A DNA stretch of 64,000 bases, taken from positions 13,321-77,320 of the IMG/VR virus record IMGVR_UViG_3300035204_001594; one strand, 5' to 3'. The DNA is from a virus. Under the pieces are notes generated by a model. That model was not told the DNA's origin and did not search any database. It saw only the letters and a program-made list of their open reading frames with translations. Position 1 is the stretch's first letter. The number at the start of each line of letters is the position of its first letter. Positions 28,457 through 30,379 of this stretch are shown here, one piece after another. A program made the position numbers and the translations under genes.

Positions 28457-28873
28457 TTAGTAGTCTTGCTCAAATACAACAGTAGATGAGTTATCGGGGT
28501 TTTGGAAGCTTCCCACTTCTTTAGCTAACTTTGTTGTGTCTAGTTTTAGCATAGTTATAGCTTCTTCGCGTGTAAGTGAGCTGCCAAACACCAGCGTCCA
28601 CTCATCTGTAAGGTAAAAATGTTCTTTAGAATTTGGTTCCCCTACCCCTAACGTAGATATATCCACATACCTACATATACCCCAAAACTCATCTCGACTA
28701 GCTCCACCTGGGGTAGTAGCCTCGACAGGAGAGCTGCGCCTTATTACCAGCAGCTCATTTTGAATAAGGGGGTCTGTGGCAAGAATACTAATGTTAAGTC
28801 TATACTGGGTATTGTTACTTACCTGAGAATCAGATTTTGTTAATGTTAGCTGTATTTTCTCGTTAGAGGACAT
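28457..28873 (-). CDS. Hypothetical protein; first gene downstream of the permuted intron
   Basis: 138 aa; AGGGACGGA upstream. Confidence 0.7.
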   Translation of the reverse strand: MSSNEKIQLTLTKSDSQVSNNTQYRLNISILATDPLIQNELLVIRRSSPVEATTPGGASRDEFWGICRYVDISTLGVGEPNSKEHFYLTDEWTLVFGSSLTREEAITMLKLDTTKLAKEVGSFQNPDNSSTVVFEQDY

Positions 28874-28900
28874 ATTTTTGTTCCGTCCCTTTATCGGGTT

Positions 28901-29218
28901 AAAACGGTGTCAAGCACAAACCTTGGGCTTAGCATCACTAGTCTTTTACAACATCGTTTGGATTACTTACGGCTTCATGTTACCGACAGTTTTGTTATCG
29001 CAAACTTCTTTAAAGCTTGCATCTACACGTCTCCGTATAGCTCGGACTATATCATCGCCTTGCGGCGCTGGGCGCTCATGGATCAAATTATTGTTGGGAC
29101 TCATCGATCTAGTCTCTGCACCTTCTGTAAAACCTTTGCCCTTTACAGCTTGGCTCAGGATTGTCCTCGGCTACGCCCGTTAGGAGTTTCCCTGAATTCA
29201 CCCAGTTTATACCGTTCT
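28901..29218 (-). ncRNA. Group I intron ribozyme (P7.1-containing), apparently circularly permuted
   Basis: P GAAUUCAGGGAAAC, Q AAUCCUGAGC, R GUGCAGAGACUA, S AUGAUAUAGUCC. P3 CUGGGUG/CGCCCAG; P8 CGCC-GCAA-GGCG; P9 CUAUACG-GAGA-CGUGUAG; P9.1; end GAUAACAAAACUG (28987). Candidate 5' splice site GCU/AAG (28931/28930) and P2 partner ACCGUUUU lie downstream. Confidence 0.88.
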
Positions 29219-29224
29219 ACTACA

Positions 29225-29253
29225 ATTATAGGGTAGGGGGGTCTGAGGGGCAA
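29225..29253 (-). promoter_or_regulatory. Sigma70-type promoter driving the ribozyme
   Basis: TTGCCC-N17-TATAAT; predicted start near 29218 coincides with the 5' P2 strand. Confidence 0.75.
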
Positions 29254-29263
29254 GTAGGTATAT

Positions 29264-30379
29264 TTAAAATATGGAGATACTTTCTCCACCTTCTGCTCTC
29301 CACTTATTCAACCCAATATCATCAGCAGTTGAACCGAACCACTGATATTGTGTCGGTATCCCTGCACCTATGATTGTGGATGTTCCGTCTGGTGTGAAAT
29401 CGAAATTAGCGGCATCTGTGTAACTTGGGTCTGTTGCAGAGATGTAGTCGTACATCGAAAGGTGGTCTGTACCAGCCATTGGTACATATATCTCTCCACC
29501 GTTTCCATAGAATGCATTATTATAGTGTCGTGTTTCGCAACTGCTCCCGACTCTTAATCCTTTGTTTGTATTGTTTGTGTGTAAATTGTTGACCCATACA
29601 CTCTGACCAGAACCTGAAATATATACACCATCATCATTTGAGTCAAATACACAGTTACAAACAACCGCACCATTATTGCCCACATATAAACCATCGTCAC
29701 CATTGTTGTAAAACGCACACTCTGCAATTCTTGCGGCTGTACCACATCGCAATCCGTCCCCTGTGTTATTATCAAACAAACATTTGTAATACATCGCAAA
29801 TTGTGTGGATTGGGTTTCACAACCAGAGTCACCATTATTGTCAAAACGACAATTTACAAAGTTCCAATAGTTTGCTGTGTTATTTGTATACACTCCGTGG
29901 GATGTTGCTTGTGTAAATTGGCAATTCATCCAATGAATATTGTTACTACTTGCAACAGTTGCCTCTAAACAATGCTGTGCTGTATCATTTGCATCAAATT
30001 TAAGGTGGGAAAATGCACTACCATCGGCAGTTGCTACTGATATTTCTACCATTGGTGTTGTACCATTTAGTCCTGTACCTAAAATATTGACAATAGTTCC
30101 ATCCACAACACCAGAATCATTCGCACCGTTGATTACAACTTCTCTGCTATTCCAAGTAATTGTGAGTTTTGCTGTGAGATTGTAGTATGTCGCATCATCA
30201 GATGTTTTCATAATGCGGAGTTCGTCACCATCATTTAATATACTTGCACCCGCAATTTCATCAAATCCTTTTTGGATTGTTTGCCACGCCGCACCAGTGG
30301 ATGTCCCGGCATTTGCATCGTCCCCGTTTTCGCCGTCCACATAGTAGATATTTACACTTGCACCATCGTATGAGGCCAT
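29264..30379 (-). CDS. Right-handed beta-helix (pectin-lyase-fold) tail-associated protein
   Basis: YYVDGENGDDANAGTS..AWQTI start; repeated NCxFDNNxxG rungs. Confidence 0.8.
   Translation of the reverse strand: MASYDGASVNIYYVDGENGDDANAGTSTGAAWQTIQKGFDEIAGASILNDGDELRIMKTSDDATYYNLTAKLTITWNSREVVINGANDSGVVDGTIVNILGTGLNGTTPMVEISVATADGSAFSHLKFDANDTAQHCLEATVASSNNIHWMNCQFTQATSHGVYTNNTANYWNFVNCRFDNNGDSGCETQSTQFAMYYKCLFDNNTGDGLRCGTAARIAECAFYNNGDDGLYVGNNGAVVCNCVFDSNDDGVYISGSGQSVWVNNLHTNNTNKGLRVGSSCETRHYNNAFYGNGGEIYVPMAGTDHLSMYDYISATDPSYTDAANFDFTPDGTSTIIGAGIPTQYQWFGSTADDIGLNKWRAEGGESISIF

What the first reader, a model, noticed from the sequence alone, without database searches (positions are those of the whole stretch)
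28931..28986. Cargo of the permuted intron: a 56-nt or 45-nt non-coding circle with two candidate 3' splice sites
Seen: exon UCGGUAACAUGAAGCCGUAAGUAAUCCAAACGAUGUUGUAAAAGACUAGUGAUGCU. AAAACUG (28987) gives a 56-nt circle. A second candidate, UAACAUG (28976), is followed by AAGCC, identical to the start of the 5' intron half and so able to form P10 with GGUUU; this gives 45 nt. Every AUG meets a stop within a few codons, so it is not a coding circle. It can fold (GUAACAU/AUGUUGU; CGGU/GCCG). Inference: an exonuclease-resistant decoy, sponge or guide RNA, for example against host defence. Function unknown.
Basis: partly seen in the sequence, partly recalled or inferred. Interest (0 to 1): 0.7.

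Follow-up and report, generated by a model that had tools for sequence, protein, structure and literature searches.

The report
Variable cargo of back-to-front phage ribozyme
A marine phage carries a self-splicing-type RNA enzyme built back to front, so it should cut itself off the message behind it and close a short spacer into a ring; related phages show that the spacer's content is not conserved, and the ring is probably 85 bases, not 56 or 45.

Summary
It lies behind a real group I ribozyme (Rfam 71 bits) that interrupts no gene and starts at its own promoter. Four metagenome contigs from related marine phages keep promoter and ribozyme in the same place; two of them reach the 3' end.

- **5' splice site:** his site (U28931), his P1 strand and his whole 45-nt option lie in a 55-nt insertion (about 28975-28921) that both complete homologues lack.
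- **Guide sequence:** his 'P2' strand AGAACGGU has the register of the guide sequence in a validated P2-less relative (L106). Its conserved partner ACCGUUU|UA puts a U.G pair at U28902.
- **Revised model:** the ribozyme is permuted in the P1 loop. The 3' splice site follows G28987 and the 5' splice site follows U28902. The ring is 85 nt here, and 28 and 30 nt in the homologues.

The cargo has no unusual fold, no Rfam match and no complementarity in the 77-kb record. It is more likely a tether or by-product of a self-cleaving operon leader than a decoy or guide. No RNA data exist, so cleavage and ring are untested. The scan had noted similar permuted phage ribozymes on other DNA.

The parts
29225..29253 (-). 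Promoter TTGCCC-N17-TATAAT; predicted transcript start at A29218
   Evidence: scores it 10 of 12. In all five family members TTGC and TATAAT are invariant, the spacer keeps 17 nt while its sequence varies, and unbroken invariance starts at 29219.
29211..29219 (-). Guide sequence (3' strand of P1), UAGAACGGU; G29217 is the wobble partner of the splice-site U
   Evidence: Same register as the validated canonical relative L106: G plus 6 nt, then AUAAA, then CUGGGUG. The wobble G lies 18 nt before the GAAUU motif, against 17-19 nt in eight P2-less canonical relatives.
28987..29210 (-). Ribozyme body: J1/3 AUAAA, P3-P9.1 with P7.1, tail CGAUAACAAAACUG, terminal G at 28987
   Evidence: Rfam RF00028, 71 bits, E 5e-16. 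In 5 sequences 99.1% of cells are paired and 4 pairs change on both sides (P6, P8, P9, P9.1), reached by 0 of 500 shuffles. Tail consensus from 117 relatives.
28902..28986 (-). Predicted exon, the RNA circle: 85 nt (revised cargo)
   Evidence: It runs from the base after G28987 to the U of the U28902.G29217 pair. The equivalent stretches are 28 nt in L021 and 30 nt in L024. Circle formation is inferred, not shown.
28931..28986 (-).
   Evidence: Sequence confirmed. Its 3' boundary is not supported.
28921..28975 (-). Insertion of 55 nt (placement +/-3 nt) specific to this lineage
   Evidence: Absent from L021 and L024. No similar or complementary sequence in the 77-kb record or in 1.15 Mb of related loci.
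28914..28933 (-).
   Evidence: It forms in the minimum-energy fold. Its 5' strand lies in the insertion and only its 3' strand has a counterpart in the homologues.
28900..28908 (-). Substrate strand of P1, ACCGUUU|UA; predicted 5' splice site between 28902 and 28901
   Evidence: It lies in a 13-nt block, ACACCGUUUUAAC, that is invariant in the window, L021 and L024 while the flanks vary. The 9-bp helix with 29219-29211 forms in the unconstrained minimum-energy and centroid folds of the whole RNA (z -3.2).
28874..28901 (-). Leader of the mRNA that the first step would release, 28 nt and starting UAAC
   Evidence: Follows from the model. The ribosome-binding region AAGGGA/GGA precedes the ATG at 28873.
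28457..28873 (-). First gene behind the ribozyme (P0001, 138 aa, unknown function)
   Evidence: It has 20 homologues, none with a family match. The same gene follows the ribozyme in L021 and L024.
29264..30379 (-). Gene in front of the ribozyme (P0002, beta-helix, tail-fibre-like); it is complete and not interrupted
   Evidence: Pfam Beta_helix, 1.2e-17. The ribozyme-less homologue L002 ends with the same C-terminus...ESISVF.

Best explanation
The 56 nt are the first two-thirds of the spacer ('exon') of a natural group I ribozyme of subgroup IA that lacks P2 and is circularly permuted in the loop of P1.

Proposed mechanism (inferred, not shown):
- The RNA starts at its own promoter, at about A29218, with the guide sequence AGAACGGU.
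- The ribozyme body runs to the terminal G at 28987. The strand that the guide binds, ACCGUUU|UA, lies 85 nt further on.
- Step 1: a free guanosine or GTP cuts after U28902. This releases the downstream operon mRNA with a 28-nt leader.
- Step 2: the new 3' end of U28902 attacks behind G28987. This closes 28986-28902 into an 85-nt circle and frees a 232-nt ribozyme.

The cargo itself is mostly a lineage-specific 55-nt insertion. In related phages the spacer is only 28-30 nt and consists of little more than the two conserved ends. The selected function is therefore probably the cut in cis, that is a self-cleaving operon leader. The circle would then be a tether or by-product rather than a sequence-specific decoy, sponge or guide.
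For: Shown here:
- **Ribozyme core:** Rfam 71 bits.
- **No host gene:** P0002 ends where its ribozyme-less homologue ends, and all frames behind G28987 close at once.
- **Conserved layout:** four metagenome contigs from related phages (L021-L024) keep promoter, spacing and ribozyme. The two that reach the 3' end also keep the downstream gene. Four pairs show compensatory changes, reached by 0 of 500 shuffles.
- **3' splice site:** 117 relatives end in CGAUAACA plus 2-6 nt plus G, as at 28987.
- **Guide register:** L106 is a canonical P2-less relative, 65% identical. Its splice junction is confirmed by the uninterrupted sequence in L067. It reads G-CGCUCU-AUAAA-CUGGGUG where the window reads G-AACGGU-AUAAA-CUGGGUG.
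- **Substrate strand:** it has a U.G pair at the right place and sits in a 13-nt invariant island. The helix appears in the unconstrained fold.
- **Homologues:** L021 and L024 have no room for any other P1, with only 18-21 nt before the strand.
- **Cargo:** no unusual fold, no complementarity, no RNA family.

From the literature: engineered constructs of the same order (guide, ribozyme, cargo, target site) circularise with P1 alone and need no P10 (PMC10457212).
Against: - No RNA data exist, so neither the cut nor the circle is shown.
- P1 is invariant in the three complete sequences, so it has no covariation support.
- A site with 6 bp plus a U.G pair arises in 6-9% of shuffled spacers. The site alone is weak evidence; the weight rests on its register and its conservation.
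- No P10 can form, because the RNA starts one base before the wobble G.
- P2-containing relatives with the same P3 also exist, so position alone does not prove that the strand is P1 rather than P2.
- A conserved tail-like motif at the start of the spacer could be a second 3' site.
- The function 'leader processing' is inference only.
Confidence: 0.55

Rival explanations
1. The ribozyme is permuted in the P2 loop. The hairpin 28933-28914 is P1, with the splice site after U28931 and GGUUUG as guide. The 9-bp terminal helix is P2. The circle is 56 nt, or 45 nt if G28976 is used.
For: The hairpin has a U.G pair (U28931.G28917) and forms in the predicted folds. Many relatives of the subfamily do have a P2 just before an A-rich junction and P3.
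Against: The 5' strand of the hairpin and the splice site lie in an insertion that L021 and L024 lack, yet their ribozymes stay under structural selection. The nearest validated relative is P2-less and has its guide in exactly this register. The P10 argument falls with the guide.
Confidence: 0.1
2. Cleavage only. The ribozyme makes the first cut after U28902, or hydrolyses at G28987, and so matures the 5' end of the operon mRNA. The second step is inefficient and no circle accumulates.
For: There is no P10 to align the 3' site. Spacers of 28-30 nt in the homologues leave little beyond P1 and the tail-like motif. The cargo is not conserved.
Against: Engineered constructs of this order circularise with P1 alone (PMC10457212). 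The terminal G and its tail are strictly kept, which matters mainly for the second step.
Confidence: 0.2
3. The circle is the point. In this lineage the 55-nt insert gives a stable small circular RNA that binds a protein or an RNA of the host or the phage, as decoy, sponge or guide.
For: The insert is kept in the population sampled by two runs. Circles resist exonucleases. The function of the comparable circles of permuted group II ribozymes is also unknown (PMC8637638).
Against: The insert is absent from the homologues. It has no unusual fold, no complementarity in the 77-kb record (the record is estimated 43% complete and the host is unknown), no Rfam match and no relative in 1.15 Mb of loci or in cultured phages. 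A half-frequency variant breaks its longest helix.
Confidence: 0.1
4. An inactive relic of an ordinary intron that lost its 5' exon and P1 strand in a rearrangement.
For: No host gene. Activity is untested.
Against: The core is intact. Compensatory changes occur in four helices across diverged phages. Promoter, guide and substrate strand are all conserved.
Confidence: 0.05

Closest known systems
[quoted passage not shown]
   Same: Same order on one RNA: guide sequence at the 5' end, ribozyme, terminal G, cargo, then a target site ending in U. P1 alone sufficed for circle formation and P10 was not needed.
   Different: This one is natural, from a phage, of the P2-less IA type with a 232-nt ribozyme. 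Its target site is followed by an operon mRNA instead of the RNA end, and its cargo is tiny (28-85 nt). Activity is untested here.
Engineered permuted intron-exon (PIE) constructs (T4 td, Anabaena); reviewed in PMC4344496
   Same: The 3' splice site comes before the 5' splice site, so splicing closes the exon into a circle.
   Different: PIE constructs put the 3' intron half in front of the exon and the 5' intron half behind it. Here almost the whole ribozyme is in front and only the substrate strand of P1 is behind.
Back-splicing of the giant ND5-717 group I intron in mushroom-coral mitochondria (PMC6545197; described as a permuted group I precursor in PMC8637638)
   Same: A natural group I RNA whose layout leads to back-splicing.
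   Different: It is a mitochondrial, giant intron with protein-coding exons. It is not a free-standing ribozyme with its own promoter and a non-coding spacer.
Circularly permuted group II ribozymes of bacteria (PMC8637638)
   Same: Free-standing permuted self-splicing ribozymes with the splice sites in reverse order. Their small non-coding circles are predicted at 15-86 nt, with variable linker content and unknown function.
   Different: A different ribozyme class with different chemistry (branching). No group II signal was found here.
Canonical P2-less phage group I introns of the same subfamily, such as L106 (IMG/VR contig)
   Same: 65% identical ribozyme, with the same J1/3-P3 sequence, the same P7.1/7.2 motif and the same 3' tail.
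   Different: L106 has its 5' exon and substrate strand in front, with a 10-nt L1 loop, and it restores a protein-coding gene.

Membership tests
Group I intron/ribozyme (Rfam RF00028) | Catalytic core P3-P9 with the guanosine-binding P7 | tested here: met
   71 bits against a cut-off of 50. Helices P3-P9.1 are 99% paired in 5 sequences, with 4 compensatory pairs.
Group I intron/ribozyme (Rfam RF00028) | Terminal G at the 3' splice site | tested here: met
   G28987 fits the tail CGAUAACA plus 2-6 nt plus G seen in 117 relatives. It is conserved in L021 and L024.
Group I intron/ribozyme (Rfam RF00028) | P1 helix between guide sequence and substrate, with a U.G pair at the 5' splice site | tested here: met
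   UAGAACGGU pairs with ACCGUUUUA, with U28902.G29217, in the register of canonical relatives. The strands are in permuted order, there is no covariation, and cleavage is untested.
Group I intron/ribozyme (Rfam RF00028) | Interrupts a host gene that splicing restores | tested here: not met
   P0002 is complete. The promoter abuts the guide sequence. All frames behind G28987 close within 24 nt. It is a ribozyme of the group I kind, not an intron in the usual sense.
Group I intron/ribozyme (Rfam RF00028) | Guanosine-dependent self-splicing | not testable with these tools
   No RNA run holds the locus.
Subgroup IA (phage type) | Extra helices P7.1/P7.2 between P7 and P3' | tested here: met
   About 40 nt are inserted there, with the helix GAUCGA/UUGAUC. 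The motif GAGUCCCAACAAUAA is shared with L008 and L106.
Circularising permuted group I layouts (PIE / STS) | The 3' splice site lies upstream of the 5' splice site on one transcript | tested here: met
   G28987 lies 85 nt upstream of the U28902 site. The same order holds in L021 and L024. Both sites are predicted from sequence.
Circularising permuted group I layouts (PIE / STS) | A covalently closed exon with the head-to-tail junction | not testable with these tools
   Only DNA contigs were available.
Known small regulatory RNA families (CRISPR repeats, antitoxin RNAs, sRNAs in Rfam) | Match of the cargo to a curated family | tested here: not met
   The only hit is a snoRNA model at E 7.7, which is chance.
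Circularly permuted group II ribozyme | Group II domains D5/D6 in front of D1-D4 | tested here: not met
   No group II family match in the window. The likeness is one of layout only.

The most novel reading that the evidence does not exclude
A family of marine-phage operon leaders is the natural counterpart of the engineered STS design. In it a group I ribozyme begins with its guide sequence, cuts itself off the message behind it and closes a tiny spacer of 28-85 nt into a ring. The spacer can take up new sequence, as the 55-nt insert here shows, so phages would have an evolvable way to make small circular RNAs.
Probability: 0.45. Interest if true: 0.8.

Novelty: new variant of a known kind. 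Interest (0 to 1): 0.62.

Why it matters
In the paper library, natural permuted self-splicing ribozymes appear for group II introns and for one coral mitochondrial group I intron. I found no free-standing phage group I ribozyme of this layout there. If the model holds, it has three consequences.
- Phages would use a group I ribozyme as a self-cleaving leader and circle maker, not as an intron.
- Nature would have arrived at the same design that RNA engineers now use to make circular RNA.
- The family offers a compact ribozyme (232 nt, no P2, no P10) with very short natural cargoes to test.

For this finding in particular, the comparison corrects the cargo's boundaries and shows that its content is not what selection keeps.

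Tried and rejected
**Readings considered and rejected**
- Ordinary intron in P0002. Rfam aligned its P1 to a hairpin at the gene's end. That hairpin is terminator-like and has no U.G pair. Splicing there would remove the conserved C-terminus.
- An upstream 6-bp partner, UAUACC (29260-29255) with GGUAUA. It is not conserved in the homologues and it spans the promoter.
- A conserved partner for the spacer's first 10 nt. Duplex searches gave none.
- A small peptide in the spacer. The AUG is absent from the window and the frames differ between L021 and L024.
- The competing helix CCGU/ACGG noted by another reader. It is present in the window and L024 but not in L021.

**Searches that found no further homologues**
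- Five of the seven viral-contig scans gave no further family member. The two core and tail patterns gave only relatives of ordinary layout.
- The genome-contig scan gave three chance hits.
- Cultured phages share only the core.

**Other blanks**
- No RNA holder is listed among the sequencing runs.
- The cargo has no similarity or complementarity in the 77-kb record or in 1.15 Mb of loci.
- My automated search for other downstream-substrate ribozymes among the 117 relatives gave mostly chance hits.
- One search shows that it breaks it.

Full report
**What is there**

The window is part of a 77-kb marine phage record from IMG/VR, estimated 43% complete. On the minus strand the order is as follows.
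- A beta-helix, tail-fibre-like gene (P0002, 29264-30379).
- A promoter-like site, TTGCCC-N17-TATAAT (29253-29225).
- A group I ribozyme core. Rfam RF00028 scores it at 71 bits for 29294-29023.
- The tail CGAUAACAAAACUG, ending in G28987.
- A further 57 nt, then the ATG of a 138-aa gene (P0001, 28873).

The quoted sequence, both candidate G sites and the two AAGCC copies are exact. All AUGs in the 56- and 45-nt versions stop within 2-5 codons, even when read round the circle.

**It is not an ordinary intron**

A relative of P0002 on another viral contig (L002) has no ribozyme and ends with the same C-terminus (...ESISVF against ...ESISIF). P0002 is therefore complete. The 'P1' that Rfam aligned inside its last codons is a terminator-like hairpin without a U.G pair.

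**Homologues**

One metagenome scan with a 20-mer from the junction and P3 region gave four contigs from related marine phages. Two are complete across the element (L021, L024) and two are cut by contig ends (L022, L023).
- All four have the same gene in front and a promoter with invariant TTGC and TATAAT. The spacer keeps 17 nt while its sequence varies, and six variable bases follow. Unbroken conservation starts at U29219/A29218, which is the predicted transcript start.
- The ribozyme is under selection for structure. Of the cells in 66 pairs, 99.1% pair. Four pairs (in P6, P8, P9 and P9.1) change on both sides, and 0 of 500 shuffles reach that.

**The 3' splice site**

A pattern built on P7' and the tail retrieved 117 distinct relatives from viral contigs. 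They end in CGAUAACA plus 2-6 nt plus G, usually UG. G28987 fits this, and L021 and L024 keep it. G28976 has no such support as the main site. However, the spacer's first bases (CGGUAACAUG here, UGGUAAYAAG in the homologues) look like a second copy of the tail. I therefore cannot exclude that it serves as an alternative site.

**The 5' splice site**

In L021 and L024 only 18-21 nt separate the terminal G from a block, ACACCGUUUUAAC, that is identical in all three sequences. The window has 55 extra bases there (about 28975-28921). The short forms cannot build his P1, yet they keep an intact and still co-evolving ribozyme.

All three do share a 9-bp helix between the RNA's first bases (UAGAACGGU, 29219-29211) and ACCGUUUUA (28908-28900). 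It contains a U.G pair, U28902.G29217. I checked it against canonical relatives.
- Among subfamily members whose P1 has a U.G pair and whose reading frame stays open across the junction, eight lack P2. Their wobble G lies 17-19 nt before the GAAUU motif of J3/4. In the window it lies 18 nt before it.
- The best case is L106. Its ribozyme is 65% identical to the window's. Its splice junction (...PER|FNMDRRV...) is contiguous in the related gene of L067. It reads G-CGCUCU-AUAAA-CUGGGUG where the window reads G-AACGGU-AUAAA-CUGGGUG.
- The strand is therefore best read as the guide sequence, and the helix as P1. The ribozyme is P2-less and permuted in the P1 loop.
- The unconstrained fold of 29219-28874 forms this helix in both the minimum-energy and the centroid structures (z -3.2).

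There are caveats. P1 does not vary, so it has no covariation. A site with 6 bp plus a U.G pair turns up in 6-9% of shuffled spacers. Relatives with a P2 at this position also exist.

**Predicted chemistry (inferred)**

Guanosine or GTP attacks after U28902. This releases the operon mRNA with a 28-nt leader that starts UAAC. U28902 then attacks behind G28987. The result is an 85-nt circle (28986-28902) and a free 232-nt ribozyme that begins with its guide sequence. The circles would be 28 nt in L021 and 30 nt in L024. No P10 can form, because the RNA starts one base before the wobble G. Engineered constructs of the same order circularise with P1 alone (PMC10457212).

**The cargo**

- It folds no better than shuffles.
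- It has no Rfam match.
- Its best match or complement in the rest of the 77-kb record is 10 nt, which is less than shuffled controls reach.
- It has no relative in 1.15 Mb of fetched loci or in cultured phages.
- Only the spacer's ends are conserved.

I conclude that what selection keeps is the ribozyme with its two sites, not the cargo. The most likely role is a self-cleaving leader of the downstream six-gene run. None of the five genes tested has a clear family match; the sixth was not tested. The circle would be a tether or by-product. That role is inference.

**What is known**

Natural permuted ribozymes in print are the CP group II class, whose circles are predicted at 15-86 nt and whose function is unknown (PMC8637638), and back-splicing of a giant coral mitochondrial group I intron (PMC6545197). 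Four searches of the paper library found no natural phage group I ribozyme of this layout. Earlier unchecked notes of this scan describe similar phage elements on other DNA.

**Limits**

No RNA run holds the locus. The family has only three complete sequences.

Noticed in passing
L008:393-700 (identical in L009, L012, L017, L020): The relative nearest in its P7.1/7.2 motif and tail sits in the 5' leader of a capsid-like gene, behind a strong promoter (TTGACA-N18-TATACT). The gene's ATG follows the terminal G at once. A strand next to P3 (ACUUUUG) pairs with CAAAAGU just before a decoy ATG. Splicing there would bring a ribosome-binding site next to the real start. I could not settle its P1, because no clean U.G pair is present.
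   Followed up: partly
window 28976-28986; L021 and L024 just behind the terminal G: The first bases of the spacer (CGGUAACAUG; UGGUAAYAAG in the homologues) resemble the intron's own 3' tail (CGAUAACA..UG). This could be a duplicated or alternative 3' splice site. It is conserved, and its role is unexplained.
   Followed up: partly
window 28950: An A/G polymorphism on the plus strand occurs at about half depth in two seawater runs. It is the only variant inside the element in this phage population.
   Followed up: yes
window 28955-28959 against 28902-28906: The insertion holds AAACG, which mimics the guide sequence. It pairs with the substrate strand CGUUU in the minimum-energy fold of the linear 85-mer. 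It might compete with P1.
   Followed up: no
window 29042-29221 (contigs of runs X3 and X4): Another seawater sample holds a copy 97% identical over the 5' 180 nt of the ribozyme but with a different P9 and downstream part. It is a further family member that I could not fetch.
   Followed up: no
window 29271-29289: A terminator-like hairpin overlaps the last codons of P0002, just before the ribozyme's promoter. Rfam mistook it for P1.
   Followed up: yes
L051, L061, L071, L070 (viral contigs): Group I introns of the same subfamily occur in tandem or closely spaced within one gene, separated by exons of only about 9-35 nt. In L070 a guide-like strand also matches a site ending ...CCUU|UAAC about 180 nt downstream.
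   Followed up: no
L002:259-330: The related phage that lacks the ribozyme also lacks the P0001 gene behind the tail-fibre-like gene. Promoter, ribozyme and operon may therefore travel together as one module.
   Followed up: no
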